DNA of 64,000 nt from Blasia pusilla (GCA_050084515.1 CM114271.1:16740001-16804000); one strand, 5' to 3'. Shown: positions 8,974 to 45,024, counted from the first letter of the stretch. The notes: a model not told the origin generated them from the sequence alone. Translations and numbers: made by a program.

Positions 8974-9390
8974 TGTTGGATTCTCAACATCCACTTCTTC
9001 GAGCACCATTAATCTGATCGGTCCCCTTGTACGAGGAGAAGCCTAGATTGATGGTTTTGACTTGGACGTCGGAGGAGTCATAGTAATATGACGTAGGTGG
9101 TTTCAGGAGTAGCGTTACTAGGATTATCCAACCTTATATTGCATCAGGGTGCCCCGCACCCTGATGCAAATTTTTCTATTAATAAAAATGAAGAAAAAAA
9201 GGTAAAAAATCCTAGTTTCCCGAGTGAAATATTCAAGAGCCGTAGCAATAGCGCATTCTCGTATGTCGAGTTATCTCCATGTTCAGGTTCCATTGAAGCT
9301 CTTCTATGAGCGCACGGACAGACTAGGCCACTTTGTATCTCTAAGTTTTGTAAAGATTTCAGTGATTTCGTCGCTTTCTGTTTTCTCACA
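8974..9390 (+). repeat. Copia 5' LTR (417 bp)
   Basis: Begins tgttggattctc, ends ttttctcaca, followed by the PBS. Confidence 0.95.
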
Positions 9391-13497: not shown

Positions 13498-13950
13498 TGT
13501 TGGATTCTCAACATCCACTTCTCTGAGCAGCATTAATCTGATCGGTCCCCTTGTATAAGGAAAAGCCTAGATTGATGGTTCCGACTTGGACGTCGAAGGA
13601 GTCATAGTAATATGATGTAGGTGGTTTCAAGAGTAGCGTTACTAGGATTATCCAACCCTATATTGCATCAGGGTGCAGGGCACCCTGATGCGTTGCGGGG
13701 GTCCAAGGGCGCAGCCCTCGGAAAAAAAATTCTATCAATAGAAATGAAGAAAAATAGGTAAAAAAACCCTAGTTTCTCGAGTAGTGAAATAGTCGGGAGC
13801 CGCAACTGTAATGCATTCTCGTATGTCGAGTTATCTCCATGTTGGGGTTCCATCGAAGCTTTTCTGTGAGCACACGGACGGACTAGGCCACTTTGTATCT
13901 CTAAGTTTTGTAAAGATTTTTGTGATTTCGTCACTTTCTGTTTTCTCACA
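13498..13950 (+). repeat. Copia 3' LTR (453 bp)
   Basis: Direct repeat of 8974-9390 with an extra ~35-bp GC-rich segment near 13690-13725. Confidence 0.95.
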
Positions 13951-14184: not shown

Positions 14185-15950
14185 TTATAACATACTAAAA
14201 ATACGAACAAACCTTAATGCCTTCGAGTTAATCCTATTGAAGCACTCAACACTTGATTGCCTATCAAAGAGGTTATTTGTCCCTAGCCAAGGGTAATAAT
14301 TCTTCACTCTCTTTATTGAGTGCCTAGCAGTCAACACATAGTCCAACTTCCCATCCTTCTTATTCAAATAGAATGGGCACTCCATAACGTAACTTATTAG
14401 TTTGAATATATCCCCTTTCCAATAGTTCTCTCGACCGCTTCTTTAAACTATGCAAGTTTAACTTCATTAAGTGTATATGAAGCTTTTGAAGGCATTTGAG
14501 AATCTAGTACGACCTCAATCTTATGATTGATTTCCCTCTTTGTTGGTAATTAAGTCATTAAAAAGCTCCTTTATCAAGACGTCCCTAAATTCCTCAACTA
14601 GTGTCCAAAGTATTTTGGGGAGTATCACCAAATGTGACTCTTAATCTTGCGTGTTATGTTTGTAGTCCCTAATTCAAGCATCAAGCAGAGAAAATCATCT
14701 TCAAACTCAACTTGGTTTGTCCTTGTAATCACATTTAACTGCAACTCCTCTTTCATATGAATTTCTAGCTCGAACCAAAATCATATGAAACAACTTTCTT
14801 CTCACTAAGATGCTCAACCTTACTGTGAGCCTTAACGGTCTTTTTCTTAGCTCACCTCATACCCATTCACGAAGGTGTTCCCTAAGACCCCTACTATCCC
14901 ATTCATGTTGCAAATGGTGAAATTCTCCTTCAACTTGCACGCCTTGTAGCCAAACATTAACCCTTAGGATAGATCTGATACTATGTAGGATTTACCATTG
15001 GAAAAGCCCACCTAAAGTAGGTTAGTCAACCTTGGTGGTCGACACATCCCACTTCTTCACTAACTACGGGCTCAAGAAGAATTACAAAGCATATGTATCA
15101 ATAAGAAACATAACATTCCTATTAGAGATCTAGGCTATTAGGTACGCATGATTGGATGTCCTCTTGTTAACTTGATGGAATACCTCTACGTCACCTTCCA
15201 ATAAGTGCTTAGTAGCAAACGTAATCATGCTCCAATTACTAATCGTAGGCTTTGGACTTACCTAAGCTTTGTGCTCGGATGTACTCGCTATAATTATAAC
15301 AATCACTCTAGCTCCAATAAACTTCGGGTACAAAGCTTTGCTCTGCCTATTGGCACTCTAGAATAAATAGATCCCCAATCTAAAGTTTGAACTCCTCCGA
15401 ACTCAAAGAGGACACGATGCCTGCATGTTCCTTGTGATGGGATGTCCACCATTGGATTGTATGATCCTTAAAAAATGTTCTTGCAATAATGACATTCTCC
15501 TTGAGCTTGTCCTCCACTATAGCCAATTATGCTTCAAATTACATCTTGATTTTGGTGAGAAACTCCTTAACTCTACATTACCACCCCATTCCTAAAAATG
15601 GAATGGTCAAATTTTTCTTAGAAAGGTTCTTGCTAAATTTTAGATATTCGATCCATCTCCAACTTAGAAATTTTCTTACTCTATTGGATTATTTGTTATA
15701 ATATGATCTTCATTAGGTTCATCATTTGAACATAAATTATTGGGTCATTTAATTTTGGAGCGGATCTTCCAATTGAACGCTTCCAATCTAGGACATTCTA
15801 ATCCCTAGATCTCGTTGGTGTGTCATATTATTCATCAGCACCCAAATACGCATATATTAAACATATTTTTTGGATCAACCAGCCTTGTGTTTCTTGAGTT
15901 TGAGTCTTGGGTCGCCCTTCAAGTTCAATAGACCTAAATAGGGTTAGATA
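14185..15950 (-). mobile_element. Old, heavily decayed Gypsy-like remnant(s)
   Basis: 14185-14385 translates RVKNYYPWLGTNNLFDRQSSVECFNRI, resembling Gypsy RT (KNxYPLPRIDDLFD...FSxID). The rest is poorly resolved and the boundaries are approximate. Confidence 0.45.
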
Positions 15951-15953
15951 CCA

Positions 15954-16091
15954 TGTCGTGCACATACATATCGCTACACAACATACATCGCTCGTCACAT
16001 CTACACCACACAACACCGATCTTCCCCACACACGGGTCCATCCACACATGTACAAAAATAAACTCATACATATACATGGAGATCACACAAC
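15954..16091 (-). repeat. Terminal repeat A (138 bp), copy 1
   Basis: Direct repeat of 16568-16705 with about 5 substitutions. Confidence 0.95.
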
Positions 16092-16565
16092 AAAAATAAA
16101 GAGTAGTAAAAATGGCACACCCGGCCTAAAACTCCACTCCTCAATCTACATCGGCATATCGAGCCTCGTCCACCCTGTGCTATCAAGGAATCCGGACGCT
16201 AGCACCCTAGTCCTAGCTCACACACATACAAGGGAGGTGCTCCAACAGCCCAACATGAGAAAGATGGCTTAGGAAAGCCATCTTCCTCTCTTATATAGGT
16301 TGGGAAGAGCCAAAAGGCTCTTCCCCTAAAAATAGCCCTTCCCTTGGTAACTGCGCAGTTACAGTTCAAAAAGTGTTTGAGTCAACAAGTCACCCGGCTG
16401 TAAAAGACCTCAACATGAAAGTTGTCAGAAACGACATTCCTGACACAATGGACCTATCCTCAACCTCATCTGACACTCTGGGACAAAGTTACACTCAAGA
16501 TAGTCCGCTGGCTCCTACGCCCTATCCACGATAGATCTAGGCCTATCGGCTACCCAGATGTGACA
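16092..16565 (-). repeat. Terminal repeat B (474 bp), 3' copy
   Basis: Direct repeat of 24751-25222. Confidence 0.95.
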
Positions 16566-16567
16566 GT

Positions 16568-16705
16568 TGTCGTGCGCATACATATCGCTACACAACATAC
16601 ATTGCTTGTCACATCTACACCACACAACACCGATCTTCCCCACACACGGGTCGATCCACACATGTACAAAAATCAACTCATACATATACATGGAGATCAC
16701 ACAAC
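16568..16705 (-). repeat. Internal repeat A' (138 bp), preceded by a PPT-like taggggggcg
   Basis: Copy of 15954-16091; separated from B by 2 nt (gt at 16566-16567); cgcccccctag at 16706-16716 is the minus-strand purine tract. Confidence 0.93.
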
Positions 16706-16781
16706 CGCCCCCCTAGCTGGCAGTTGGATCCCCCTAACTCCAAATAGAAAATATCACATCTCTCTGACATGACCTACTACC

Positions 16782-16925
16782 CTATACATATCTCGGACAC
16801 ATCCATCGTCCCGTGGGAACCACATCAAGAGGGGGGTTCAGACATGACATATGCCACCCTCGAGAACAACCATCACATACCAACATGGTGGCTGCACCCC
16901 TCGCAGATCCGCACAACATACACCT
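16782..16925 (-). other. PHD zinc finger at the C-terminus of the integrase
   Basis: CMLC...MLVCDGCSRGWHMSCLNPPLDVVPTGRWMCP: C4HC3 PHD pattern; the last Cys appears mutated to Tyr. Confidence 0.9.
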
Positions 16926-17127
16926 CAAGCCTGCAGGTACCACTGCCAAGCTCGGATCCACCATCCCATTTACATTTGGAAGATGACATGGCGCACAATT
17001 GCGCACATGATCCTTCCAAACCATACCATCCCGTCCCTCCAACATGAGGACTCCGATCGATAATACCTCGCACGCACAGGATCGATGCGCGCAGGTGTGC
17101 GATGACATCTAGCGTCGTGGGTGCCGC

Positions 17128-18303
17128 CTACTGTAAATACACGTAATCTCCAGGATGAAACCTCCTAATCCCTGGACGAAAACCTCCTCCACGAATGGTC
17201 GCGTACCTCAATGTATCTCTATGCTGGGCAATAGCTAAGTTCTCAAAGGCCATAGGCATAACTCTACAAAAAAATTTTGCCCTCTGAGAACATGCTTGCA
17301 CCCACACAATTAGATCATCAAGATCTAACACCTCCGCCATGTCACGTCGAATCGCTGTAGGTAAATCTGGCTCTCTCCCAAAGAGCAAAAAGTATGGTGA
17401 AAATGACGCCAAGGATGCCTGCCGACTAAAGCGATAACCCATAGCCAACCATGGCAACTGTAGGTCCCACTCCCTCAATTGTCCCCGCTGCAAGCCATAC
17501 TTGCGCAATCCTCTCTTCACTGTCTGTACCACTCTCTCTGCCAACCCATCCGCCTCAGGATGATCCCTGGACGTGGTGTGGTGATCTATTAGCGCCTAAT
17601 CACACAAGGCCTGAAACTCTCCCCTGAACTCGGTACCCTGGTCAGTCAACACCTCCGCCGGTGCACCAAAGTGACTAAGCACACGATCTAGAAACGCATA
17701 AGCTGTTCCCTGGCTCGCCTTGTCTGGTAGTGCCACCAACTCTATCCACTTGGAGAAATGCTCCACCATGACCAACACGTACCTATGATGATGCCCTGTC
17801 AATGGCAAAGGTCCCGCAAAGTCTAAACTCCACCGATAACCTAAACCCATAATCGGCAAAGGATATAACTGCGGAGTGGGAGCATTGAAGGATGCTTGCA
17901 CTTTGTCATATACCATACATCTGGCCACAAACTTCTGTACCCCAGTATGCATGCCGCGCCACCAATACTGAACCTAGAGTAAGCTATAAGTACGCTTTAC
18001 TCCGAAATTTCCCAACTCCTCATGGGCATGTCGCACTACACGTGCTCGCTGGGAAGGATGAGGTACCACTAGTATCCTACCATCTCCCCATACCCGTAAA
18101 ATGTGAGTCCCCTCCCACCTGAACCTCTTGGCTCTCTGTAGGATCCGATCCCGCTCCCTAGCACTCACTGTACTCGCAATGACGCCAGTGCGCAAGAACT
18201 CCACAACCTCCATGTCGTCATGGATATCACGACCACTTGTCGCCTCCTCACTAACCTCCGGATCCAAAGACTCATCATCCAATCCCACCACTGGAGTCAT
18301 CAC
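17128..18303 (-). pseudogene. Gypsy integrase (H2C2 + DDE core), with in-frame stops
   Basis: RHAHEELG, RWSLDFAGPLP, VMVEHFSKWIE, LTDQGTEF, AERVVQTVKRGL. Confidence 0.92.
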
Positions 18304-19668
18304 CTATGGCTGACCTGCCATAGTCAACCAACAAAGATAGGCATATGCATGCCAACCGGGCACCATCTCCTCATCACTCTCTCCGTGCCATCGAGCTCCC
18401 GTGACGTCTCTCTGACTCGGACATGGGTTACGACTCAACCCATCCGCATCCTGGTTCAACCAACCTGGCCTATGAACCACCTCAAACTCATACTCCTGTA
18501 GTAATAGAGCCCACCTGGCAAGCTTTCCTGTAAGCTTTTCGGACTCCATCAACCACCTCAACGACTGATGATCAGTGATAAGTGTGAAAGGGTTTCCGAA
18601 TAAATAGCACCTAAAATGTGCCACGGCCCATACGGCAGCCAAGCACTCTCCCTCGTAGGAGCTGTACTTTGCCTCTGTAATGTTGTTCGATCGGCTCGCG
18701 TAAGCCACAACGAACTCCCTCTCCTCGTCATCCCTTTGAGTAAGCACTGCTCCTAGACCCAACATGCTCCAATCCGTATGTAACTGGAATGGGCGACCCC
18801 TAACCGGTCTCTGTAAAATGGGTGAGGACGTCAACCTGTCCTTGAGCTCTTGAAATGCTCGCTCTTGATCATCTCTCCACAACCACACTTGATCAAGTCT
18901 CGTCAACAAGGTCAAAGACTTTGCGATCGCACTAAAATCCTTGACATACCGTCGATAGAACTTTGCCAGTCCAAGAAATGCCCGGACTCGACTCACATCT
19001 GTAGGGAGTGGAATCTGCGCAATAGCCTCTACCTTCGTCTGCTGAACGCCTAACCCACTCGGGTATATGGTGTGTCCCAAGTACTCAATCTGCTCTTGAA
19101 AGAATCTGCACTTGCCTGGATGTAACTTCAGTCCATGTAACTACAATTGCCGAAACACCTCCTCCAAGTGTCGCTCATGCTCCTCAACCGTGGAACTGAA
19201 GATAAGAATATCATCTATGTAACATCGTACAAAATCCAAGCCAGCCAGAATCCTATCCATCACTCTCTGAAACTCCGCAGGCGCGTTCTTCAATCCAAAT
19301 GGTAAGAACCGCCACTGATACAAGCAATCTCTCCCAAACCGATCTATCCCCCAGAATGTTGTCTTCTCCTTGTCCTCCAACCTGATAGGAAGTTGATGAT
19401 AGCCAGCACGGAGATCTAAAGTACAAAAGATCTTTGCATGCCCTACCGCATCAAAGATCTCCTCAGGAGTAGGCATGGCATACCGATCTGACCTCGTCTG
19501 TCGGTTGATAGGACGGTAATCTCCACACATCCACCTATCCCTCCAATTGCCATACATATCCTTCTTCGCCGGCATGACTGTGGCAGATGCATACTCCCCA
19601 TGTGATAACTCCACAAGTCCTGCCTCCAACAAGTCCTGACTCCTGCTCTGAATCAAGGCTCGCTCCAT
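18304..19668 (-). pseudogene. Gypsy reverse transcriptase and RNase H
   Basis: CGDYRPIN, LDLRAGYHQ, LPFGLKNAPAEFQ, YIDDILIFS; RNase H LHTDWS, YSSYEGECLA, TDHQSL, DADGLSR. Confidence 0.95.
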
Positions 19669-20164
19669 ATCACAATACCTGTAGGGTCAACGAAAGATTG
19701 GCGTATCACTAGCCAACTCAATCCGTATCCCGGGACCCTTTAGCATACCCAAGTCTCTCATACTGAAGGAAAAACAATTGACATGCCCTCTCAGAAACCT
19801 ATGAACTCGCCGTCGCTCTCCTCCTATCATCTTGAGACCTATCACAGGCTCCCAAGTCTCCATCGTGACCTCACTCGGAGAGGACGCAACCTCCGGCTTT
19901 GGTTGCTATGTAGCAATCCTAGCCACCTCCGCAACAGCCACTCCACTTTGACCTCCTACACCATGCTCCACATCCGAAAAATGAACATGTGCTACTCTAG
20001 CCGCCTTCGCACTCTCTGATCGAACGACGTCCCAGGAAGTCCATGGGTGCCTATCTCTCCTCGTCTCGCCCCCAGCCAATGCTTGTACAGACCTTGTAGG
20101 CAATGGTCCAGCTCGTGGACGAGACGGCATGGATGACACTCGCATCCGTCTTTGCTCAGCCATA

Positions 20165-21120
20165 CCTAGGCTGACTATCCATGTGAGACAGTTGAGGTCC
20201 ATCGCCTGCCCCAACACCTGTCTCCGTGATGCCTCAGTCATCCCTGGCACCGCCGTAGTACTGGTAGTGAACCCCATGGCGCGCTCGCGCTCATCTGCTG
20301 TAGGCTCCTCCGATAATCCGGTCACCTCATCCCAAATCATGCCTGGCCCTCCCTGACAAAAGGCATGGGATGCTGGGAAGCTCACCAACGTAGGTAAGGC
20401 TGCCCTCAACTCCCCCACCCTATTGGCCGTGGCCAAGGGTGGTCTATCATCGCGTGTCACCACCTGAGATCGACGCCCTGAGTCCAAAATAGCATCCACT
20501 GTGAGATGTAGTGCTCTCTGGACTCCACTGTAGGCTCGACTCAGTACCTCTGATGGCATCAGGTTCGTCCACCATAGTCGTGGATGATGGGCACGTGACC
20601 CAACTCTCGCAGCATCTAATAACACAGGAGGTCCCAACCAAGACCTCACCTGATGTACACTCGTCATCACACGTGCATGAGTATCTCCCAACAACGGCAC
20701 GTTCTCCAAAATGTACGCTGGAGAACATATCTGACTCTGTTGCAAGTGTCGTACTACTCGCGCAAACATCTCCCAAAACATCCCGACCTCGGATCCCGCA
20801 ATCCAAATCCTCGGCCAGCTGATGAATGACCCTGACATGGCCATCCAGCAATCACCAAATGAATGGTGCCAACTCTATCCAGATCCCGCGCCCCCACCAA
20901 AGATATGTCGGCGGGTAGCGTATGCTGGTATCCCCGTACTGCACATACCGACAACAACTCATGATACCTCTGGACCAATCTCGCCACTTGACGTAATGAT
21001 ACTCGCCGCGCGGTCTCATCTCTCTCCACGTAAAGGTACTGATGCACCCATATGCCCGCCTGCAATATGGCAGCCAATCCGGTGCTAATCCCTCCGAAGA
21101 GAACTAACACCCTAACACCC
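20165..21120 (-). pseudogene. C5 cytosine DNA methyltransferase domain (DNMT3-like) within pol; single -1 frameshift at ~20783
   Basis: Motif I VLVLFGGISTG, II YVERD, III DI, IV AGWPCQGHS, VI LENV, VIII RAHHPRLWWTN, IX ERERAMGF, X RRQVLGQAM, all in canonical order across ORFs 20754-21446 and 19906-20844. Confidence 0.92.
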
Positions 21121-21499
21121 TCCTCTGGGCACTGCCACACAACAAGTGTGGTATCTAGTGGGGTCATCGTCTCCACTCCAAGACCCCGATCGCCACGTGA
21201 CTCTCGCTGCTCTGGGATAAAAACATGACTCCACGCCTGCCTCACGAGATCGTCGGCACTCCTCTGTAGCTCTCGAGTCGTACCCCACAATGGTGAAGAG
21301 GCCTCACCAACATGGGAAGAGACACCCGCCATTGCCTGTCTCTCCGTGGGACTATCCGCTACTGGGACATCCTCCGCATGTGCGTTCCCCTCCAACAACT
21401 CTCCTGTCCAGATAACACTACCTCTGAAAGCCGCCAATGTGGCCATAGACTCGCCTCGTGATCAACCACCTCGTCCCGCAAACTACACGGGTAACTGAC

Positions 21500-21862
21500 T
21501 CATCCGGCCGTCACCTGACCGCCATCCTCCCAGAAGTCAAGGATGAATCCTAGGGGATATAACACTGTACTCCCCACCAACACATTGTATGACTCAGCTG
21601 GTGTCGTAATCGCACGTGTGCGCACCATAGCACTATCCGTCGCATGCTCTGGCTGGACTCTGACAACAATCTCTTGTCGAGTCATATACTGAGTGGGTGA
21701 TACGCCCCCAATAGAGGTCTGTATCTGGAAGGGACAAGGCTCAATGTTGGCCTTCCGTAACCCCAACGCTAAACACGCCGCCTTCCCTAACATCAAGGGT
21801 TGCGCTCCCGAATCAAGTAGGACGCGATGCGGGTGGTATACCGTCCCCGTCGGACTAACCAA
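21500..21862 (-). pseudogene. Retropepsin-type aspartic protease
   Basis: RVLLDSGAQ catalytic motif and downstream YNVLVG. Confidence 0.85.
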
Positions 21863-22499
21863 GCGAAATACTCCGGCTCGATTATCGGTAACACTACTCC
21901 AAGTGTCACCATCGCCGCTCTATGGCGGTCGAGTGGCATATCTACCAACTTCACTGCCGCCGCATGCCATGACTCTGTGGGGAACGTCCCAAGCACCGGC
22001 TCTGAGGGCAAGTCCACCACCTCCTCAACTACCTCTGAACAAGAAGCAGTCATCTCTCCACGCTCACACAACGTGGCGGCCAACCAGAACACCTCATCTG
22101 GTCCAACTCCCAACGTCGCCAACTCTAAGGCGGAAAATAGCGGAGTCTGACTCACTCTAGTGGCCACCTCCAACACTATAGTCGACACCGACTCACTCGA
22201 GCCGGCATAGGAGTTGTCACTCCAACTCCTCGTGACGTCGGCGTAGGTGCTCGAATCAGAGGCACCGTTGGTCGCCGAGGCACCATCGATGGTGTGTGTA
22301 GTGCCTCCGACAATGTGAACGACTGTGGAACCCTGGCCTGCCGCCCATCGGTCCCCTCTGGTGGGTCAATCTCAACTCCACCTCTCGATGGCTCGGTGCC
22401 TCTCGCAGCTTCCCGAGTCACCACTGGAGCTGCCTCAACCTGGGCTGCACTACACATGAATCCCATACTGGAGAGATCCTCACCTGGGTCAGGGTAAGA

Positions 22500-23946
22500 G
22501 GTAGAGACTGGAGTCACACTAGTTGCTCGCACTCCGTGCCTTCCTAAGCCGCATCATCGTCATGGCGGCAATCCTCTGCTCAAGCTTCCGATCGATCGTG
22601 AGAGAAGCGCCACTCTACGGTGCTCTGCTCCATCTCCTCGGCTGGTGGTGGTCCTCTACCACCACGTCTAGGAAGAACTCCCGACCTCCCCGGGACGGCC
22701 GCCCCAAGCCCTCGGCCTACCTGCGGACGTGCCCCTCGTCGAAGGTCAAAACATCTATCCCTAGTGTGACCATATCTCGTGGCAATGGTCATATGGTGCC
22801 GTGGTGGGGCCATCCTCTCGTGGCTCTGAGCAATCGGAGGCGCTGGTGGTCCTCTCCCATGTTGTGGGCGATCTCTCGCCTATGAGCCCCTCCACACGTC
22901 CAACAAGACCACATCGGTCCCTGCTGGGCAACATATGTAGGTGCGGGTCGTTGCCTCATAGGCTCACGGTACCCGCCCTGCTCTCTAGGCACACTGGCCC
23001 GCTCCTGTGGTACTGGTGCTTGCTGTGGCACCTGTGGGGTCACCGCCGCTCATGGACCTGTCAACTCTCGAGAAAATCCAACAGTCACTACCTGCTCCTC
23101 ACTCATGTTGAGCTCAATACGCTCAGAAAACTCAAAGACCACCTTCAATGTGGGCTTCGCTGTGTGAATCAGCACCGCATCTCAGACTCTCCTCCGTAGT
23201 TCTCGATCCAGAACCCCGTACCAATACTGGACTGATTGCGCCTTAGTCACTCCAAACGTAGCAATGATCAGCCTCCTCATGCGTGTGAATGCCTCTCTCA
23301 GACTCTCACCCGATCGTCGCTAAAAATCCTGTAGACTCTTCAGCTTGTCGGTGCGTACGCCCTGGTAGCTCTTCCCCAACTTTCGGAAGAACTCCACTGT
23401 GGGGCTGAAGTTGGGTGGCCCTATACCGCCAGAGGTCTCTGCCACATCGCCTGTCTCACTGCCCTCCTCTCCATCTAGTCTCTGGGCTGATGGTGTGGGT
23501 CTCCCTCCTCTCACAATCCCATTATATGCCTCACGACCATTAGTGGACACATACCCTGGAGCCCAATACATCCTCCAGGCATCGATCTCTACTGAATATA
23601 GTGATCGAAACTCCATGTAGTCATCCATCGAAGGACCCTCCAAGTGCTGGAACAACCCCTTCCATGCCATGAAAGGGTTGAACCGTGTCGGGGTCCGTAT
23701 CTCCTGGAAGTCGCACCATGTGTCGAACTCCTGGATGAAATCATCTAAGTCGATGGTACCCACTGCACCCGAGAAACGACGCATGCCCCAGTGGCCCATG
23801 TCGTCCATCTCCGGCCAAGTACTATTGTCTCTGTCGGTGATCTCGTCACCAGACCCAGTGTCCAATGATGACGATCCAGTCACGGATGGATGTCGAGGGA
23901 GCTCCTCACTGGTAAACCCTCGATATCTCACTCCACTCCGTGTCAC
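22500..23946 (-). pseudogene. gag region with zinc knuckle remnant
   Basis: RFSGAVGTIDLDDFIQEFDTW, KLKSLQDF; CWTCGGAH knuckle at ~22880-22910; located upstream of the protease. Confidence 0.75.
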
Positions 23947-24736
23947 ACCACTACCACTGCTCGCACTACCCTGTTCTTTCGAACCCTGGAAGAACGCCGT
24001 GATGACAAACCCTGTCTCACCCGATCAAGCACTCAGACTCATCGAGAGTCTCCCACACGCCTCACTAGCTCACCTATGCTAATGTCAATCCCGTGATGAC
24101 ATACCCGGCCTCACGCACGCTCAACACTCGGGCTCACCATGAGCCTCCCAACTGACTCACCTAACCTAGCGACACTCTCTCGGGTCATACACGCGACTCC
24201 TACTCGGAAACCGCCGTATATCCACCAACATGCTATACATGAAAAGAATCTACACTCGTCACCATCACTGCACCCATCTAGCACCAGCTACTACCCGATA
24301 CCCGGCACTCTCAATCACACACGACAAGTGCGGGAAAAGGGACTCGAATGGGTAACTTGATCACGCCCATCCGCGCCCAGCCCGTCCAGCCCGTCCGCGC
24401 CCGTCCCTTGCCCGTGACCTAACCCTAGACCGGCCGCGACCTAGCTAGCCGTCTTTACTTAACAGCCCCTCGGCGGCTGCAAGACCCAAACTTTCCTTTC
24501 TTCTCTCTCTCGACACCCTCACTTCCGTACACCCGACGCCCCACCACACGCTACACTCGGCTGCTGTCCCCCATCAATCCGCACCAGCAAAATCTGAGAA
24601 AAAAGGACAACGCTTCCGCCCACGGCCTTCCGAACAGAAAAATGACACAAAATGTCACATACACGTCTCCAGGGGCTCCCGACCAAGGCAACTCGCTTGC
24701 CTACCTGCAAACAACGAATTCCCACCGGCCCCCTGA

Positions 24737-24750
24737 CATCTTTCTCATGT
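24737..24750 (-). promoter_or_regulatory. Candidate self-priming primer-binding site
   Basis: catctttctcatgt (24737-24750) abuts repeat B' and is the exact reverse complement of 24912-24925; there is no TGG-type tRNA PBS here. Confidence 0.75.
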
Positions 24751-25222
24751 AAAAATAAAGAGTAGTAAAAACGGCACACCCGGTCTAAAACTCCACTCCT
24801 CAATCTACATCGGCATATCGAGCCTCGTCCACCCTGTGCTATCAAGGAATCCGGACGCTAGCACCCTAGTCCTAGCTCACACACATACAAGGGAGGTGCT
24901 CCAACAGCCCAACATGAGAAAGATGGCTTAGGAAAGCCATCTTCCTCTCTTATATAGGTTGGGAAGAGCCAAAAGGCTCTTCCCCTAAAAATAGCCCTTT
25001 CCTTGGTAACTGGCAAGACAGTTACAGGGGGTGACTGGTCAACAAGTCACTCGGCTGTAAAAGACCTCAACATGAAAGTCGTCAGAAACGACATTCCTGA
25101 CACAATGGACCTATCCTCAACCTCATCCGACACTCTGGGACAAAGTTACACTCAAGATAGTCCGCTGGCTCCTACGCCCTATCCACGATAGATCTCGGCC
25201 TATCGGCTACCCAGATGTGACA
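24751..25222 (-). repeat. Terminal repeat B' (472 bp), 5' copy, with TATA box (tatataa, 24956-24950)
   Basis: Direct repeat of 16092-16565; the element starts tgtcacatctgg at 25222. Confidence 0.95.
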
Positions 25223-27619
25223 ACCAACCTAACCCCTCATGCACAACATAGGAAAGTTATTCAAAACTTGGGACATAATTCTTTGATAGTCTAGGGCTAT
25301 AAAACATCACTCGTACAACTTGTAGTCCCAATTGCCCAATGGATCTCAAATGAGTCTCTAAGAGAAACTCCATATATGAGTAACAGATCAAGGTCCATGT
25401 TAAGGTCCAAAACTATACTACCCAGACTTTGCTTGATATCAAACCCCTAATGCCAACCTCTCAATTCATCCCATACCCTTAGTTCAACCCCCATGCAAAC
25501 CCTACAATATAGTTCCGGAGGAATTTAGCCCCTCCTTCATCCAAAGAAATTGTGTAAGGGCTTCTTATGGCCTTTAACCCAAACTATCATTCCAAAAATT
25601 TTGGGACTTTTTCTAGTGAATTTTTCTAAATCTTTAGTGCCTTGGAATTGACTCCTTACAAGATTTCTAACACCATCTTATCTATGAACAAAAATATATT
25701 GGATGTAATTGTTATCATCTCAAACGTGATGAACCAAAAACTTTCAATTCGGTTCCAAGCTAGGTTGGAGTCTTCTTAGAGTCCAACTCTTGTGGGATGT
25801 GAGATCTTCTCAAGTTTCACCATGTCTTTGGTTATGCTCTTCTTGTTCACAACATCTATCATCATTTGAGATGCTCATTAAGGCTTAGGTCTTGCTTATG
25901 CCAATCATGTCTTGTTGGTGAAACTTTGATGTGTTACCATCATAGTGTTAGCCCACAAGATTTTTATGTTTTGCATTGGCGCATTGGTTGTGAGCGCCAT
26001 GATACTTCCTCCTCCTCCCTCCCCCCCAAGAGGATTAATTAATCCTTTATGACATTTAAGATGAATCAATATATATATATCTTCAACTTCATGTTCCTTG
26101 GAGCTTGGATTGTTATGCTCTCATTCCTTCAATACTTGAGGCACAACAAAACTTGCCCCCTCTCCCTCCCTTCCCCTTCCCCCAAATAATAATGATTCTT
26201 TCTTTCTAGTTGCAAAAATGAAAATTTAGAAACAATTTTAAAGAATTCTTCATTTTCCCATTCACCATTGATACTTTTAAGGGAGGATAGCTTCTTGATT
26301 TCCAAACACCTCTTTGACTAGTGCACGACAATGGATAGCAAGAAATTATTTGGTAGCACGAGCGACAAGAATAAATTTTTTGGAATATTTGGAAACCAAA
26401 ATAATTTCTCTCGCGCATGAAATATGTTGTACATTGGTTTATGGTAATTAACACATTCCTCCCAAATGAGTTCTTCACTTTCCTCATTCCTACTATTTAG
26501 AATGCTAGTTAAATAGCATATGAAAATCACATAAATTTAATTCCCTCTAAAATTTTGTAATTTAATGAAAACAAATATTTGATATAATTTTAAGAAAAGT
26601 ATAACTTGAATAATTTTGACGCTTGGAAAAAAGGACATATGATGTTCATTGAGCTTTCACATTCCTTTCTACTAATAATAGTTCAATTTTTTCACTCATT
26701 ATACATACTTCCACTTGATATTAGCTAATAAAGAATGTACACGGTTGTACAGATTCCATAAGTCCATTATTTCAAATAAAATAAGAATAATCCCTATCAT
26801 TTTCTCATAAATATTTTTTCTAATGTAAGATTTTCCTCCTAAAATTTTTTTCTTCCTATGATCCCTTCATTTTTTTTACTATGTGTTTTATGCATATAAA
26901 GAACCATTAAACTAATAATTATGCAAGAGGATTATGGAAAATATTGTAGGTAATCACTTTCCAAAATTTAAGAGATGCCATAAAGTTTGGCTGTGGTTAA
27001 AGATATTCACCTAAAAATTAATAAAACTATACGATGAATAAATAAAGTGCTAAGAAGTTATCTTTTAAGAATAGGAGGTATCTCTAAGAATAATCATCAA
27101 TTAGGTGATATTTTTAACTTGAGATATGATATCAATTTAAGTAAATAAATTTAAATTTTAAAATTACCTCCAACCATAATATCTTTCATAATTTGAGGAT
27201 GCTTGTAATCCTCATTTATTAGGCAAGAGAATCTATCATTTGAAATCATCTAAATTATTTGGAGAATGATTCCTCCATAAGTTCATTTAGTATAAATACT
27301 TAAGTTATATAGATCCTTCATACCATTTCTTAAGAGTTGTATTAGAATTTCCACCTTTGGATTACGATGAAGTGTACAATGATTCTAATTTTGGGATAAT
27401 AATTTTAGTGTCTTGTTTCAACATTAACTTCCACTATGTTTACAAGTTTCTTTTTAACGAATTATCTTATTTCCACCATTCTCATCATTAGAAGAAAAGT
27501 ATGGGTTTTTTGTGATTTACCAATGAAATACTTTTGAACATAATAAATCAAATTATGACTCTATTATTTTCTTTTCTTTTCTGATAGCTCATTCAAATGA
27601 GATATAAAAAAATTGACTA

Positions 27620-28660: not shown

Positions 28661-31600
28661 CAAAAGGATACGAAATTTATATCTTTTTGATTTTTTTATG
28701 TTAATAAAAATGAATGGTTCTTTGTCTATTCTAAATGTGAAACCCTATTTCACTAAATAGAGACTCCTAATATATTCTTATAATCCCATATTCCTAAATA
28801 TAAATTCCATTCATTCAGGAGTAAACTCCATACTCTAATCCATTTATGCAAGTCTTTTTAAAAAAAAAATGAAGACGAAAGTAGGTTCTAGAAAGGAGAG
28901 GAACATGTAACTATTTAATAACTTTGGGGCTAGTGATGCAAGTTTGAATCCTACCTTGACAAGTTTTAGAGGATGGGTGGTAAATGGAGGGAAGGTCAAA
29001 CGTGAGCACATAGATGAAGGGAGGATGGATAAAAGGGAAATTTAGTGGTGGATAGATGGAGGATGGATTGCATGACGTTCAAGGGACATATGAAGCGTGG
29101 GTAAAAGGTTGGAGGATGGACGGAAGGAAGGAAGGAAGGAATGAACACAACCGTTAAATGCATATAGTGACGAAAGAAGAGTTTAATGATGGATGGACAA
29201 TGGATGGAGGATGGAAAAAAGGATATTCGAGGGATATATGGAAAAATGAGTAGAGTATTGAAGGAGGAAGGAAGGATTTTTTCATTTAAGGCAAATTATC
29301 TGATGAGGTGGCATGATTCCCATGTCATATATCTAATTGTGAAGTAGTAGTCATGGTAATAATTCTTCTTTTACCTTCCATGCCATCAAACCATTATAGT
29401 TATTTTAGTTATTTACAACATACGACTTGGATTTTGTGTCTATGAGTAACTCTTCATTTTTAATCATGGAATGTGATATATCACTCGTATGAGTCATAAA
29501 ACCAATGATTGTTTTTAGTTAAGTCATTAAATAAGTATTTTTGATCCTACCTCCACACACTACCATATTTTCATAAGATCTTGTGGGTGCTTTTTCGGTA
29601 TTTTTATGTTTGCTACTACTTGAGTGTACTTCTTAAGTGTTCTTTATATGAGTATTTTTCAAGTGCTTTCTAAGATCAACATCAATTAATAACGAGTGAA
29701 GAAAATTTGTGAGTTCTCTGCAAGTATGGGAATGGAGGCTCGCTAACACCAATAAAATACTCGCAAAATGGGCTTACAAAATATCCAATAGTTTACATGT
29801 CATGTATAACTCTCTTGTAAGAAAAGATTGTAACTTCTTACACTCACAAACAACTCGCACAACTAGGATAATAACTTGTAAAAAGGAATCACAAAGATGA
29901 AAACTTGGATAACTTCCCTTTCCCTTGCCACAATCCTTCATTTTTCATTTTCTATCTTAACTTCCAAACTCTACTTGAAGCTCTCCTATTTTAAAGTTAT
30001 TTTTCTCTTAAGCTAGTGGGATTAAGATTTTTTTTTTCTTACCAAATTTTTTTGGGTCATAGGAGAGAATCCATTTGGGAGAGTGCACTCTCCCAAGGAT
30101 TCTCTTCTAACCCTAACCTCACATGAGGTTGGGTTTACTATTCAATTTTATGGTTGTAATGGAAGGAGCATATGCAATGGTATGTCTATCGACTAGAAAC
30201 TAGATAGAAGTGATATAAATCCTATGCCATATGCGTGCACATTTTTGCACAATTTATCAAGATGGAAACCATGCTTAAACACATAAAGATTATACATCTG
30301 ATCATGATTACACACTTGATCATGTATCAAACGATATCCATTAAAAATAGAAAATCAGATCACAAATATACCCCATAGCTTCTCTCTCATCAGCTTATGT
30401 CAAACCCAAACCCAATTTCATAATTAGAGGCATGGGTTACTCACAAAGTAAGAAGCATGATAGCTCAAACATCTAATGGGAGGAGGTTACACAAAGAATG
30501 AATGAGTTCTCCAACATCTCTTTCTTTGGGATATATCCTCTTCCTTTCCTAGGTAATATTTGCGTATACGTTACCTCTCAAAACCTAACCCTCAATACTA
30601 GGTTAAGGAGCCCAATTTGGCCACTAATAAAAAAAACTTACATGATATGATAAATTCCCGTACATAGTCCCAAATAGGCCATAGATTGGGGTGGGACACC
30701 TATATATTCAAGAACCTGTACACATGGGTTGAATTTGGTTCCCCACATCCCCAAACAGTCACCCTCAACCAATTACATATCGACGTCAACCCTCTTTGAG
30801 TATGCCATATAGATATCCTCTAATCTAGTAAACTAACATAACACCTAATTCCATTTTGCTTTAAGATTTAATTGTACTTAATTTCTAACGTGTATTTTTT
30901 GTGTTATACAAAACTTGATGCATCATTCAAGTTAGTAGGGCTACGAGTAGATGCCGCTAGCTTGTGTGCATAAAGTTTCTTCCAATAAAGAGATTGTTTC
31001 TACTAAGGAGACATGTATAGAACATGAAGTCATTATCAATCTCATACATAAGATCATTAAGATATATCTTATTTTGTTTATATTCGAGCATCAATATTGT
31101 ACAAACAAGTTTATGCTTTGCATGAAGTCATTGTATGATGTAGAGTTCCATGAATATATAACAGTTTTTGAAAAAAATTATAGTCCAAGAAATAAATGAA
31201 GATGTAAGGGAATACAAACCCCCCTAACAAGAATAGTATTTTTTGCACTCACAAAGTATTCAAAAATTTGCTATGTGAGTGTAAAACGTTGTTAAGACTC
31301 ATTACTAACTCATAATGGAACCGCATGGTGACCTTTTTTCACAAGTATTTTTTGAGCTAATTACAAGTGTTTGCGTGTGTCAAAAAATGAACCTCTTGAC
31401 TCGTAAAGTACCACCAATTTATGAGTATAAAATCACTAGTTTGAAGTGCTTTGAGAGTATAATACTAAAATATTTATGAGTAGTTTGTGGCTCTTAGGAC
31501 ACATAAGAATTTCGTTAACCTAATAGTAATGCCTATGTTATTTATTCACCTCCAATTGAAATCCTATTTTAGCTGTAGCCGTATGAGTTTATCAGGAAAA

Positions 31601-32027
31601 TTCCCAACTTTTGTTCTGGTCTTACTAGTTTAATGGATTGTGAGATGCACACAAAAAAATTCATAAAATTAGAACTAAAATTATCTTTTAAAGAACTCAA
31701 AAAAAAAGAAAAAAAAAGAAAAATTATAAAACAAGTTTTGAAATTGAAAAGAGACATATAGCATCCAAACAACATATTGTATTGTAAGATACACAAACAT
31801 ATTTAAATCCATCATTGACCAAAATTTGTTTGATAAGTGAGTATAACAACATAAAGACACTGGACTAAAATATCATAATATTCTTAGAGTCATCAAAGAC
31901 TTTTAGTCCATTACCTTTATATCACTACTTCCTACTAGTATTTTGATGCTCATGTGATGCACTAGGCTAGAGAGATGGAGGTGAAAAGCAACGATGAAAA
32001 TTCCCCTTTAAGTATGAAATAAAAATC

Positions 32028-35000
32028 ATCGCTACACAACATACATCGCTGACACCGAACACACACACACAAACACGCACGATCCCAAGCTAACTCATGA
32101 CACCCAAACACAGTGACGAGAAGTACCAAAATATTTCCAATAAAATAAGGTTAAATCTCTCTCACAACACCATAGCTCTCACATATATGCACTCTCACAT
32201 ATCTCTCTCAATGTCAAACCAAACCCACTCTCCTAATGAGAGGCTCGAGTTACACTCACAAGGCAAGGTACCATAGCTCCGCTGCCTCATGCGAAGAGAT
32301 TCAACATAGAGAGAATGAGCTCTCAAACTCTCTCTCCTTGAGGTATACCCCTCCCTTCTCCCAAGCTCTCTCCATGGTAACCTAGGCTCCCAAGTCATCT
32401 CCTTGGCTCTCGACCTGATGTAGGAGGTCAAGGGTCACTTCCCAAAATAGAAATCGACCACAGAGTCAAAATGGCAATTACCCAAAATAGTAAGTTCTTC
32501 AATATGGCTCCAAATGGGCCGAAACGAAGGGGAAACCTGTTATCTCACATTTCTCAGGGCCTCAGTAGGTCATCCTCGACCTCTTGAGTGTGTCCTCCAC
32601 TACTCGCAAAGGCGCTCTACTAGATCTTACCGATCTATCCTAAAAGATGTGACAATTATCGTGTGCATACATATTGCTATACAGCATACTTCGCTCTCAT
32701 CAAACACGCACACAAACACGCACGATCCCATGCTAAATCATGGCATCAAAACATAGAGGTGAGAAGTACCAAAATGTCTCCAATCGCCCCCCTATCTAGT
32801 GGTTAGGTCCCTCTAACTCCATATAATTATCTATCCTTACCTACTATGACATACATCTCTAGGACGCTAAGAGCAAAAAGTTTGGGTGCTTATGTGGCCC
32901 CATCGTTAGTCGTCTTCTTGTCATCCATATTATAGACATAAGTCAAAATCTAGAACTACCTACTCTATGTACATCTGGGATTCATCCATCGTCCATGAGG
33001 AACCCTAGTGAGAGGTGGCGTCAAACATGCCATATGCCATCCTCTCAAACACCCATCATAGACTAGCATAGTGGTTGCACCACGGGCGGAACAACACAAT
33101 AGACATCATAAGCCTATAAGAACTACTGCTAAACTTGGATCAACTTTACCATCAATGTTCGGAAGGTGACATGGCATATATTTATGCACATGTCCTTCCA
33201 AACCATACCATCGCGTTCCTCCAATAAGAAAATACCATATGGTAAAATCTCACACACTCTTAAGATAGTGCGCCCTGCAGTCACATCCAACGTCGTGGGT
33301 GCCGTTTGCTGTAAGTAGACATAGTCTCCCTGATGAAACCTCTGGATAGTAGGTCGATAACCATCTCCCCAAATAGTTGCATACCTCAACGTATCTCGAT
33401 GCTGCGCAATCGCCAAGTTCTCAAACGCCATGGAGATCAATCTCTGAAGCAACTGAGCCCTCTAAGAACATACTTGCAACCATACATCAGGGTCATCAAG
33501 GTTCAACATCTCACCAACGTCTCGACAAATGGCCACAGGTAAATCTGGCTCTTGGCCAAAAAGTAGCAAGTACGGTGAGAAAGACGCTAAGGATGCCTTC
33601 CTGCTGAATCTTAATCCCATGGCCAACCACGGGAACAGGAGGTCCCAATCTCCTATGTGACCTCTCTGCAAGCCATACTTTCCAAATCCTCTCTTCATCG
33701 TCTGAATAACCTTCACCGCTAGTCCATCCCTCTCAGGATGATCTCGCGAAGTGGTGCGATGGTCGATCAGCGCCTCATCACACAAGGCCTGAAACTCCGC
33801 AAGGCTCTGTACCTTGGCCTATCAACACCTCAACTGGTACCCCATAATGACTTGACACTCAATCTAGGAAGGAATACGATACTCCCTCACGCTTTGTCAA
33901 GCAATGCAACCAACTCTATCCATTTTGAGAAGTGCTCAACCATCACCAACACATAACGACTATGGCGCTCTATCAAAGATAACGGTCCGGAAAAATCCAA
34001 ACTCCATCTATAACCTAAACTCATGATCGGAAGTGGATGCAATTGTAGATTTAGAGCATTGAATGATGCCCGGACCTGATCACAAACCATGCACACTCAC
34101 AACAAACTGTTGAATGTCAGTTTGCATCTTTTGCCCCCAATACTATATCTGGAACAAACTATATGTTTGCTTCACTCCAAAATGACCCAACTCCTCGTGG
34201 GCGTGACGCACCAAACGCGCTCTCTGTGAAGGATGAGGCACTACACGCACTCTACCATCCTCCCAAACTCGCAACACATATGTCCCCTCCCACCGGAACC
34301 GTCTGGCTCATTGTAGGATCTGATCCCGCTCTCTAGCACCCATTGTGCTCGCGATGCTGCCAGTACACAGATACTCCAAGACAACTTTATTGTCAAGAAT
34401 GTCTCAGCCACCTGTCGTCTCCTCATCGGCCTTTGGATCCAAGGACTCTCCATTTGACTTCGCCATCGAAGTCTTAGCAATCTAGCTGTCCATAGCCAAC
34501 CAACCTAAATAGGCTAACACGTGCCATCCTGGCACCAACTCCTCATCACTCTCACCATGCCAACAAGCTCTAGTCACATCTCGTTGACTCGAGCATGGAT
34601 TACGACTCAAACCATCTGCATCCTGGTTGAGCGTCCCAGGTCTATCCACCACTTGGAAGTCATACTCTTGCAACAAAAGAGCCCATCTCGCAAGCTTCCC
34701 TATAAGCTTGTCGGACTCCATCAACCACTTAAGTGGCTGATGATCAATAATGATGGTAAAGGGGTTGCCAAATAGATAAAACCTGAAATGTGCCAGCCCA
34801 CACTGTAGCCAAGCACTCACCCTCATATGAGCTATACTTTGCCTCTACAGCATTGTTTGAGCGACTAGTGTAAGCCACCACAAACTCTCTACCATCATCG
34901 TCATGTTGGGTGAGCACAACTCCAAGCCCCAACATGCTCTAATCAATATGCAACTGGAAAGGCCGCCCCGTGATCGGTCTCCTCAATATGGGCGCGGACG

Positions 35001-44728: not shown

Positions 44729-44846
<118 letters not shown>

Positions 44847-44951: not shown

Positions 44952-44955
<4 letters not shown>

Positions 44956-45022: not shown

Positions 45023-45024
<2 letters not shown>

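What the first reader, a model, noticed from the sequence alone, without database searches (positions are those of the whole stretch)
24737..24956. Tf1-like self-priming signal in place of a tRNA primer-binding site
Seen: the 14 nt immediately downstream of the 5' repeat (minus strand acatgagaaagatg, 24750-24737) are perfectly complementary to minus-strand 24925-24912. That stretch begins 31 nt after the start of a TATATAA box (24956-24950), where a TSS is expected. No TGG-type PBS is present. Known: S. pombe Tf1 and relatives prime minus-strand synthesis with the transcript's own first nucleotides after RNase H cleavage. Inference: this family self-primes, which also places the true U5 end at the end of B and supports the permuted-LTR model.
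Basis: partly seen in the sequence, partly recalled or inferred. Interest (0 to 1): 0.78.

Follow-up and report, generated by a model that had tools for sequence, protein, structure and literature searches.

The report
Self-priming site in a split-repeat retrotransposon
A plant retrotransposon carrying its own DNA-methylase gene appears to start copying itself with the first letters of its own RNA rather than a host tRNA, and this also explains its oddly rearranged end repeats.

Summary
On the minus strand, 24750..24737 lies directly after the 5' repeat B. It is perfectly complementary to 24925..24912, which begins 31 nt after the first T of TATATAA. None of 2000 or 1000 shuffles gave such a match.

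The element (25222..15954) is a Ty3/gypsy-type retrotransposon encoding PR, a C5-DNA-methylase-like domain, RT, RNase H, integrase and a PHD finger. Its repeats are laid out B-coding-PPT-A-B-A. This is the layout reported for Klebsormidium KnitGypsy-Dnmt3.

Eighty related metagenome loci show the same layout. Two further subfamilies have quite different sequences at both sites. In each, the letters right after B still pair with a stretch starting +33 from the TATA box. Across the three subfamilies, 4 of 7 alignable pairs changed on both sides.

Tf1-like self-priming is therefore the best explanation (about 0.75). The transcription start was not mapped; RNA reads showed no start pile-up.

PBS and PPT define a reverse-transcription LTR of A-B. 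The integrated ends (TGTCA...GACA, 4-bp target duplications) are the start of B and the end of A, so the copy is permuted. How that permutation arises is unresolved.

Verdict: a new variant of a known kind.

The parts
24751..25222 (-). 5' copy of repeat B. It begins TGTCAC and holds the promoter (U3 part), R and U5.
   Evidence: 96% identical to 16092-16565 over 475 columns. The sequence upstream of it is an unrelated flank.
24950..24956 (-). TATATAA box.
   Evidence: Read. TATA boxes sit at the same distance from the primer-like stretch in subfamilies I and II.
24916..24947 (-). Hairpin between the TATA box and R. The left arm (24947..24934, GAGGAAGATGGCTT) is a near copy of the PBS. The right arm (24929..24916) overlaps the primer-like stretch.
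   Evidence: Predicted 14-bp stem in the fold of 24950..24720, z-score -2.75, 0 of 200 shuffles as stable. An analogous hairpin, CTCAAAGAAC-ata-GTTCTTTGAG, occurs in subfamily II.
24912..24925 (-). Putative self-primer: the first 14 nt of the transcript (start of R), catctttctcatgt.
   Evidence: Perfect complement of 24750..24737. It starts +32 counting the first T of TATATAA as 1. The transcription start is inferred, not mapped.
24737..24750 (-). Primer-binding site, acatgagaaagatg, beginning at the first base after repeat B.
   Evidence: The position is fixed independently by the B|A junction of the 3' copy.
16782..24024 (-). Degenerate gag-pol region: gag-like ORF, protease-like DSG motif, C5-DNA-methylase-like domain, RT, RNase H, integrase (H2C2 + rve) and a C-terminal PHD finger. 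It is interrupted by several stops and frame changes.
   Evidence: ORF list. Pfam scan: RVT_1 1.5e-22, RT_RNaseH 1.7e-35, rve 1.7e-13, PHD 3e-11, and DNA_methylase 0.0041, which is below its cut-off. The FxGxG-like and PCQ motifs were read by eye.
16706..16714 (-). Polypurine tract aggggggcg, directly before the start of A.
   Evidence: The homologous CTAGGGGGGCG sits before A in element 2 and in L010. A G-run directly precedes the start of A in 25 loci.
16568..16705 (-). Repeat A, first copy. It ends ...CACGACA and is followed by the 2-nt spacer 'ac' (16567..16566).
   Evidence: 96.4% identical to 15954-16091. The junction reads GACA-ac-TGTC.
16092..16565 (-). 3' copy of repeat B.
15954..16091 (-). 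Repeat A, second copy. It forms the 3' end of the insertion and ends ...CACGACA.
   Evidence: It is followed by the flank tggt, which repeats 25226..25223.
25223..25226 (-). Target-site duplication TGGT, upstream copy. The downstream copy is 15953..15950.
   Evidence: Read. Of the 7 complete copies examined (this one included), 6 have a perfect 4-bp duplication and 1 has a single mismatch.

Best explanation
Window 25222..15954 (minus strand) is a decayed copy of a streptophyte Ty3/gypsy retrotransposon family. The family carries a DNMT-like domain and a PHD finger, and its repeats are laid out B-coding-PPT-A-B-A.

Proposed mechanism: transcription starts about 32 nt after the TATA box inside the 5' B. 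The first 12-14 nt of that RNA fold back onto the complementary site directly after B. The element's RNase H then cuts behind the duplex, and the freed 3' end primes minus-strand DNA. This is the mechanism demonstrated for Tf1 of fission yeast.

Minus-strand DNA therefore starts at the last base of B, and plus-strand DNA starts at the G-rich tract before A. The LTR made by reverse transcription is thus A-B. The integrated copy begins at B and ends with A, bounded by TGTCA...GACA and a 4-bp target duplication. It is a circular permutation of the expected LTR-coding-LTR product.

Shown here: the complementarity, its exact position, its conservation and covariation, the repeat layout, the end sequences and the target duplications.

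Inferred: the transcription start, the RNase H cut, and the route to the permuted form.
For: 1. In the window, a 14/14 complement is anchored at the first base after B. No shuffle matched it: 0 of 2000 and 0 of 1000.

2. The B boundary is fixed independently of the complement. The 3' B stops at the same base and abuts A, and A starts right after the polypurine tract.

3. Related elements came from 80 metagenome loci.
- Subfamily I (12 rows, 11 distinct): AGTTTTTCTAGA at +33 from TATAAAA pairs with TCTAGAAAAACT directly after B. 136 of 144 cells are paired.
- Subfamily II (6 rows): (A)GTTCTTTGAGT at +33/34 from TATAAAG pairs with ACTCAAAGAAC(T) directly after B.
- Of 20 element rows examined, 9 have a perfect complement of 10 nt or more at this homologous site.

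4. Across W1 (the window's element 1) and both subfamilies (9 rows), the 7 alignable pairs give 61 of 63 cells paired. 4 of 7 pairs changed on both sides. 0 of 500 shuffles reached the covariation score, and no slid control showed a double change.

5. In subfamilies I and II the complement starts at an A preceded by a pyrimidine. That this is the usual plant initiator context is recalled knowledge.

6. RNAalifold closes R-U5 with the 5'-end:PBS helix in both subfamilies.

7. The PBS words differ between subfamilies, and none begins with TGG. A conserved host tRNA would not give this pattern.

8. Self-priming is described for Tf1/Tj1 (PMC4600332, passages). It has been predicted for other plant lineages (PMC6317226, passages).
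Against: 1. The transcription start is not mapped. On 24400-25300, the RNA raw-read run gave 110 laid reads and no place where molecules begin or end. Sense coverage is similar on both sides of 24925.

2. Within subfamily I there is no compensatory change: 0 pairs changed on both sides, 8 of 144 cells are unpaired, and the shuffles do as well. Conservation there could reflect shared ancestry alone.

3. 10 of the 20 rows lack a perfect complement of 10 nt or more at the site. They have G.U pairs, 1-3 mismatches, or a deleted primer region (L010, L015). The remaining row, W3, has only a 9-nt perfect match (13 of 14 overall).

4. In the window's second lineage (unit 44410-45240), the complement of the R start lies inside the repeat unit, 19 nt before A. 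It belongs to a 46-nt inverted copy of the TATA-to-R region. This does not fit the simple model.

5. The primer-like stretch also forms a strong local hairpin with a U3 arm. If transcription started further upstream, that hairpin would compete with the PBS.

6. No host tRNA set was available, so a host RNA primer is not formally excluded.
Confidence: 0.75

Rival explanations
1. The pairing is a long-range RNA stem closing R-U5 that serves another purpose, such as packaging, dimerisation, strand transfer or translational control. Minus-strand synthesis would then be primed by an unidentified host RNA at or near the same place.
For: The stem is the closing helix of the consensus folds. Within subfamily I only conservation is seen, not covariation. 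The second window lineage carries the complement inside the repeat unit, like a U5 stem.
Against: The right arm starts exactly at the first base after the repeat in three subfamilies. That is where the primer must anneal to give the observed repeat boundary. The left arm starts at the expected transcription start in all three. No TGG-type site lies next to the boundary.
Confidence: 0.12
2. A host tRNA, tRNA fragment or other small RNA is the primer. The match to the element's own R start would be secondary.
For: Host tRNAs could not be examined: no genome is held and the window has 0 tRNA genes. A conserved GTGGGAATT lies 27 nt (window) and 40 nt (subfamily II) after B.
Against: The three PBS words are unrelated to each other, and each matches its own element. 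A site 27-40 nt downstream would move the repeat boundary, which is not observed.
Confidence: 0.05
3. The inverted repeat acts at the DNA level. It could form a hairpin or be a recombination site used in making or opening the permuted form, rather than acting in priming.
For: The family has an unusual permuted layout whose origin is unexplained. In W1 and subfamily II a third copy of the motif lies in U3.
Against: The insertion ends and the A|B junction carry their own inverted repeat, TGTCRTG, which is unrelated to the 14-mer. Nothing places a breakpoint at the primer-like stretch.
Confidence: 0.05
4. The match is a chance coincidence.
For: None beyond the low-complexity, purine/pyrimidine-rich nature of the words.
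Against: 0 of 2000 and 0 of 1000 shuffles matched it. The same arrangement recurs with other sequences in two subfamilies.
Confidence: 0.01

Closest known systems
Tf1 / Tj1 of fission yeasts (self-primed Ty3/gypsy elements)
   Same: The PBS lies directly after the 5' LTR-type repeat and is complementary to the 5' end of the element's own mRNA. No tRNA site is present. (PMC4600332, passages read. The Tf1 details of 11 nt and an RNase H cut are recalled.)
   Different: Here the complement is 12-14 nt. The integrase ends in a PHD finger rather than a chromodomain. A DNMT-like domain sits in pol. The repeats are split (B...A-B-A) rather than two equal LTRs. Phylogenetic relation to Tf1/sushi was not tested.
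Plant lineages predicted to self-prime: Tcn1 chromoviruses of mosses and clubmosses, and TAR Ty1/copia (Neumann et al. 2019, PMC6317226, passages read)
   Same: A plant host, no tRNA-type PBS, and self-priming predicted from sequence.
   Different: That survey's text has no occurrence of 'PHD' or 'methyltransferase'. The present family is not named there in the passages seen, and its supplementary tables were not read. Those lineages have ordinary LTRs.
KnitGypsy-Dnmt3 of Klebsormidium nitens (de Mendoza et al. 2018, PMC5890265, passages read)
   Same: Gypsy domain order with a DNMT inside pol. [quoted passage not shown] Klebsormidium proteins are 49-56% identical to the window's RNase H region.
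   Different: The window's nearest relatives are liverwort proteins at 72-77%. The paper has no occurrence of 'primer binding' or 'PHD'. Not described there are the PBS, PPT, self-priming, TG..CA ends, 4-bp target duplications and the GACA-NN-TGTC junction.
DIRS-order elements with split direct repeats: PAT, Ngaro, VIPER (PMC4157794, passages read); TOC1 of Chlamydomonas (recalled)
   Same: The same A1-...-B1-A2-B2 repeat geometry.
   Different: Those elements use a tyrosine recombinase. This one encodes a DDE integrase (rve) and makes 4-bp target duplications. No tyrosine recombinase appeared in the 11 ORFs scanned.

Membership tests
Self-priming LTR retrotransposons (mechanism class of Tf1) | The PBS directly after the 5' repeat is complementary to a stretch inside that repeat. 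| tested here: met
   14/14 in the window, and 12/12 and 11-12 in two subfamilies.
Self-priming LTR retrotransposons (mechanism class of Tf1) | The complementary stretch is the very 5' end of the mRNA. | tested here: inconclusive
   It starts +32/+33 from the TATA box in three subfamilies. However, RNA reads gave no start signal.
Self-priming LTR retrotransposons (mechanism class of Tf1) | No tRNA-complementary PBS. | tested here: inconclusive
   There is no TGG at the boundary. Host tRNAs were unavailable. A TGG lies 27 nt downstream.
Self-priming LTR retrotransposons (mechanism class of Tf1) | An RNase H cut releases the primer, and strong-stop DNA carries it. | not testable with these tools
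   This needs biochemical analysis of particles.
Tf1/sushi (Tcn1) lineage of chromoviruses | A chromodomain at the integrase C-terminus. | tested here: not met
   Pfam finds a PHD finger (3e-11) and no chromodomain. Relatives carry PF00628.
Tf1/sushi (Tcn1) lineage of chromoviruses | RT/IN phylogenetic placement within the clade. | not tested
Streptophyte Gypsy-DNMT3 elements (KnitGypsy-Dnmt3) | A C5-DNMT domain inside pol of a Gypsy-order element (RT-RH-IN). | tested here: met
   RT, RNase H and rve were found. The DNA_methylase hit is weak in the decayed window copy (E 0.0041, below cut-off). PF00145 is recorded for close relatives P0006, P0014 and P0025.
Streptophyte Gypsy-DNMT3 elements (KnitGypsy-Dnmt3) | Repeats arranged A-coding-B-A-B (in this report's lettering: B-coding-A-B-A). 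| tested here: met
   Two elements in the window. Also L014, L024, L069, L058 and L010.
DIRS order (PAT/Ngaro type) | A tyrosine recombinase instead of an integrase. | tested here: not met
   The integrase zinc-binding and rve domains are present. No phage-integrase hit appeared in the 11 ORFs scanned.
DIRS order (PAT/Ngaro type) | Split direct repeats. | tested here: met

The most novel reading that the evidence does not exclude
This family makes ordinary retrovirus-style cDNA with A-B LTRs, self-primed at the PBS and primed on the plus strand at the PPT. It then joins U5 to U3, as a circle or a concatemer.

Its DDE integrase opens that DNA at an internal palindromic site, GACA-NN-TGTC, at the A|B boundary. 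Staggered cuts after each CA would leave recessed CA-3'OH ends with 2-nt 5' overhangs. This is the geometry of processed retroviral ends, and it gives B-coding-A-B-A insertions with 4-bp target duplications.

If true, a DIRS-like split-repeat layout can arise without a tyrosine recombinase, and an integrase would naturally use a joined-LTR substrate.

A second new element: the U3 arm that copies the PBS may mask the 3' copy of the primer, so that only the 5' end of the RNA primes.
Probability: 0.3. Interest if true: 0.85.

Novelty: new variant of a known kind. Interest (0 to 1): 0.66.

Why it matters
Self-priming is established for Tf1 and has been predicted for a few plant lineages. The family here is a different one: streptophyte Gypsy elements that carry a DNA methylase and a PHD finger. 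Their DIRS-like repeat layout was noted in one figure legend (PMC5890265) without explanation.

Locating the PBS and PPT shows that the reverse-transcription LTR (A-B) and the integrated ends (start of B, end of A) are out of register. This turns a structural curiosity into a defined question: how does an integrase-bearing element insert a permuted copy?

The same question has long been open for split-repeat elements such as PAT, Ngaro and TOC1. It could be approached here in liverworts or Klebsormidium, with cDNA-intermediate and circle-junction sequencing.

My searches found no paper describing self-priming or PBS/PPT positions for this family. Supplementary tables of PMC6317226 and PMC5890265 were not read and may bear on this.

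Tried and rejected
- **Own-genome search.** No genome is held for this window. Copy census, host tRNAs and intact copies were therefore out of reach.
- **Earlier notes of the scan.** Nothing was found by place, words or sequence.
- **Sequencing runs.** No RNA holder was listed.
- **Read lay.** I laid one RNA raw-read run, one possible-RNA contig run and two DNA contig runs on 24400-25300.
  - No pile-up of read starts or ends appeared.
  - RNA coverage lies on both sides of 24925, so the transcription start is not resolved.
  - B is far deeper than the leader in the DNA runs.
  - 9 RNA reads run from the end of B into A.
  - None of the 40 listed variant rows falls inside either 14-mer. However, 46 rows were not shown, so this is not evidence of invariance.
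- **tRNA check.** Aragorn in a script parsed only 1 tRNA from the window plus loci, and its best complement was 7 nt. The tool found 0 in the window. This is not a meaningful test.
- **Element 2 (41501..about 32020).** Its 5' B is cut after 65 nt. No complement of its R start exists elsewhere in the window.
- **Unit 44410-45240.**
  - I first read it as B-PBS-deletion-A, which would give a 13/14 covarying pair.
  - Alignment with element 2 and inspection suggest instead a 46-nt inverted copy of the TATA-to-R region inside the unit.
  - It is left ambiguous and was not used as support.
- **Generic inverted-repeat scan.** I scanned 29 loci for perfect inverted repeats of 11 nt or more that follow a TATA box. 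It found only L069 plus three AT-rich hits elsewhere, so no further subfamilies were gained.
- **Up/downstream repeat search at lower stringency.** This added only L065, which was not followed.
- **Within-subfamily covariation.** None was found.
- **Papers not held.** PMC1369541 and PMC1563812, the primary Tf1 self-priming papers, were unavailable. Tf1 details rest on PMC4600332 and recall.
- **Rejected: the tggtatc after the 3' A as a tRNA-iMet PBS of a downstream element.** It is the 4-bp target duplication TGGT.
- **Rejected: a plain LTR of B-A with a deleted 5' A.** 15 distinct metagenome 5' ends, plus W1, go from B straight into the PBS.

Full report
**1. The observation**

On the minus strand the 5' repeat, called B here, runs 25222..24751. 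Its 3' copy runs 16565..16092. The next 14 bases, 24750..24737 (acatgagaaagatg), are the exact reverse complement of 24925..24912 (catctttctcatgt). TATATAA lies at 24956..24950, so the latter stretch starts 31 nt after its first T.

I tested the 25 nt after B against shuffled versions of B. None of 2000 or 1000 shuffles gave a 14-nt match. No TGG-type site touches the boundary; a tgggaattcg starts 27 nt further on.

**2. What the element is**

ORFs and Pfam show a decayed Ty3/gypsy-type element. It has a gag-like ORF, a protease-like motif and a weak C5-DNA-methylase hit (E 0.0041, below cut-off; FxGxG-like and PCQ motifs seen by eye). It also has RT, RNase H, an integrase (H2C2 + rve) and a C-terminal PHD finger.

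The closest proteins are from liverworts: Calypogeia 77%, Marchantia 72% (those with PF00145 recorded) and Riccia. Next come Klebsormidium at 49-56% and Closterium. Many metagenome proteins share the RT-RH-IN-PHD layout, with or without DNMT.

The 3' end reads polypurine tract (aggggggcg), A (16705..16568), 'ac', B, then A (16091..15954). The whole copy is therefore B-coding-PPT-A-B-A. It is bounded by TGTCAC...CGACA and by TGGT on both sides.

A second element in the window is about 75% identical to the first (41501..about 32020). It has the same PPT-A-B-A 3' end, and its 5' end again starts at B.

De Mendoza et al. 2018 describe Klebsormidium KnitGypsy-Dnmt3 as having Gypsy domains but 'the structure of repeats ... 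of a DIRS retrotransposon' (A-coding-B-A-B). The text has no occurrence of 'primer binding' (PMC5890265, passages).

**3. Related copies**

No genome is held for this window. I therefore fetched 80 metagenome loci, using an alignment of ten DNMT-bearing relatives.

Self-comparison shows the same B-coding-A-B-A layout in L014, L024, L069 and L058. B pairs were also found in L066, L010 and L054, and L010's A pair was confirmed.

- **Target duplications.** Seven complete copies were examined. Six have a perfect 4-bp target duplication: W1 (the window's element 1) TGGT, L069 GGTC, L024 CCAA, L066 CCAC, L058 GGTA and L010 TCTC. One has a single mismatch: L014, ATTA/ACTA.
- **5' ends.** Fifteen distinct metagenome 5' ends all begin TGTCATG after unrelated flanks. 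None is preceded by A.
- **A|B junction.** A regex scan gave 31 hits, of which 19 read GACA-NN-TGTC with a 2-nt spacer. These include both window elements. The other 12 were not checked one by one.
- **Polypurine tract.** A G-run directly precedes the start of A in 25 loci.
- **B|A junction.** It is identical in 8 of 12 subfamily I 3' copies. L058 has a substitution, L061 has +1 nt, L033 has -2 nt, and L066 has lost most of A. In subfamily II, L057 is exact and L010 has about 18 extra nt.
- **Caveat.** Some loci are probably the same genomic copy assembled from different samples, for example L068 = L060.

**4. Test of self-priming in relatives**

Subfamily I (alignment A2, 12 rows) has TATAAAA. 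At +33 from it lies AGTTTTTCTAGA. Directly after the B end (...CAAT) lies TCTAGAAAAACT.

Subfamily II (A3, 6 rows) has TATAAAG. At +33/34 lies (A)GTTCTTTGAGT, and directly after the B end (...CATTTTC) lies ACTCAAAGAAC(T).

Twenty rows were scored for a perfect complement.
- Nine have 10 nt or more at the homologous site: W1 14; L069, L066 and L022 12; L014 and L054 11; L050, L078 and L021 10.
- W3, the 44410-45240 unit, has 9 perfect and 13 of 14 overall.
- Ten rows have none. In the alignments these carry G.U pairs or 1-3 mismatches, and L010 and L015 have lost the primer region.

Within subfamily I, 136 of 144 cells pair, but no pair changed on both sides and the shuffles do as well.

Across W1 and both subfamilies (A7, 9 rows), only the first 7 pairs could be aligned. 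There, 61 of 63 cells pair and 4 of 7 pairs changed on both sides. No shuffle out of 500 reached the covariation score, and no slid control showed a double change.

Consensus folds close R-U5 with this helix.

In short, three unrelated word pairs occupy the same two positions. One position is fixed by the promoter, the other by the repeat boundary.

**5. Why the right arm is the priming site**

In reverse transcription of an LTR element, the downstream edge of U5 in the 3' repeat is set by where minus-strand DNA starts. That point is the base before the PBS (established retroviral model). Here the 3' B ends at exactly the base that precedes the complementary word. A primer annealing 27-40 nt downstream would give a longer repeat.

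The PBS words differ between subfamilies and each matches its own R start. This argues against a shared host tRNA.

**6. Evidence that does not fit or is missing**

- **RNA reads.** The run gave 110 laid reads at 90% likeness. They cover both sides of 24925, mainly in the sense orientation, with no pile-up of starts. U3 coverage is expected from the 3' repeat of full-length RNA, so this neither supports nor refutes the predicted start.
- **Run listing.** No RNA holder was listed for the stretch (recorded under Tried and rejected).
- **Local hairpin.** The primer-like stretch forms a strong local hairpin with a U3 arm that is a near copy of the PBS (24947..24934 with 24929..24916). Subfamily II has the analogous hairpin; subfamily I does not.
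  - With the TATA-predicted start, the left arm is absent from the 5' end of the RNA but present in the 3' repeat.
  - I infer that it may mask the 3' copy of the primer. This is untested.
- **Unit 44410-45240.** Here the complement of the R start lies 19 nt before A. It is part of a 46-nt inverted copy of the TATA-to-R region. I could not fit this to the model.

**7. The permutation**

PBS and PPT define a reverse-transcription LTR of A-B. The integrated copy equals LTR-coding-LTR with the left A moved to the right end.

The B|A junction is an exact U5-U3 join, as in a two-LTR circle or a concatemer. The A|B junction, GACA-NN-TGTC, has the inverted-repeat ends of the insertion. Staggered cuts after each CA would leave recessed CA-3'OH ends with 2-nt 5' overhangs. 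This is inference.

One result argues against random opening of either junction of a two-LTR circle: 0 of 16 B-PBS ends are preceded by A. The route therefore remains unresolved.

**8. Comparison and novelty**

The mechanism is that of Tf1/Tj1 (PMC4600332, passages). Self-priming has also been predicted for the plant Tcn1 and TAR lineages (PMC6317226, passages). Membership in the Tf1/sushi lineage is not supported: a PHD finger replaces the chromodomain, and phylogeny was not tested.

The family matches the streptophyte Gypsy-DNMT3 elements. A 2026 preprint mentions these only in passing (10.64898/2026.05.21.726589, passages). The repeat geometry is that of PAT/Ngaro elements (PMC4157794, passages), but with an integrase and target duplications.

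My searches found no description of PBS, PPT or self-priming for this family. Supplements were not read.

**9. Verdict**

The finding is real. Its interpretation is supported at about 0.75. It is a new variant of a known kind, and it opens a mechanistic question about split-repeat retroelements.

Noticed in passing
window 32020-41501 (minus strand): This is a second element of the same family, about 73-80% identical to the first. Its 3' end has the same PPT-A-B-A layout. Its 5' B is cut after 65 nt and followed by unrelated, AT-rich sequence. Its PBS region is therefore lost.
   Followed up: partly
window 44410-45240 (plus strand): This is a lone B-A unit of the second lineage. Two long (GA)n expansions lie inside it, between the TATA-like box and R and within U5. 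A 46-nt inverted copy of the TATA-to-R-start region abuts A. Its flanks, ttcc/ttct, match at 3 of 4 positions.
   Followed up: partly
window 24934-24947 with 24916-24929; subfamily II loci (e.g. L021, L054): A near copy of the PBS lies in U3, between the TATA box and the primer-like stretch, and forms a hairpin with it. Left arm, primer and PBS have all changed together between W1 and subfamily II.
   Followed up: partly
window 24709-24724 (minus strand); subfamily II alignment A3 columns about 375-390: GTGGGAATT is conserved in the leader of W1 (27 nt after B) and of subfamily II (40 nt after B). Its function is unknown, and it was not compared with tRNAs.
   Followed up: no
window 25013-25037 versus 16354-16380: A short patch of about 25 nt differs completely between the otherwise 98-99% identical 5' and 3' copies of B. 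Read depth also dips there in all runs.
   Followed up: no
window 8974-9390 and 13498-13950: This is another pair of direct repeats, 89-92% identical and about 4.5 kb apart, in a G-skewed plus-strand stretch. It is probably a different, smaller LTR element.
   Followed up: no
window 30397-30546: A 150-nt fragment 72% identical to part of B of the second lineage, lying about 1.5 kb beyond element 2.
   Followed up: no
L010 10838-10855; L024 14913-14930; L066 14762-14790: Irregularities occur at repeat junctions. L010 has about 18 extra nt between B and A. In L024 the terminal CTACACGTCACGACA motif of A is duplicated. In L066 the last A has lost all but its final 29 nt or so.
   Followed up: no
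L065 3905-4447 and 11197-11741: A 549-nt repeat pair (72% identical) flanks a relative's pol. The upstream copy ends only about 460 nt before the DNMT match, so the architecture may differ.
   Followed up: no
one search run list: Several runs labelled air metagenome hold 17-23% of the sampled words of the 5' repeat region.
   Followed up: no
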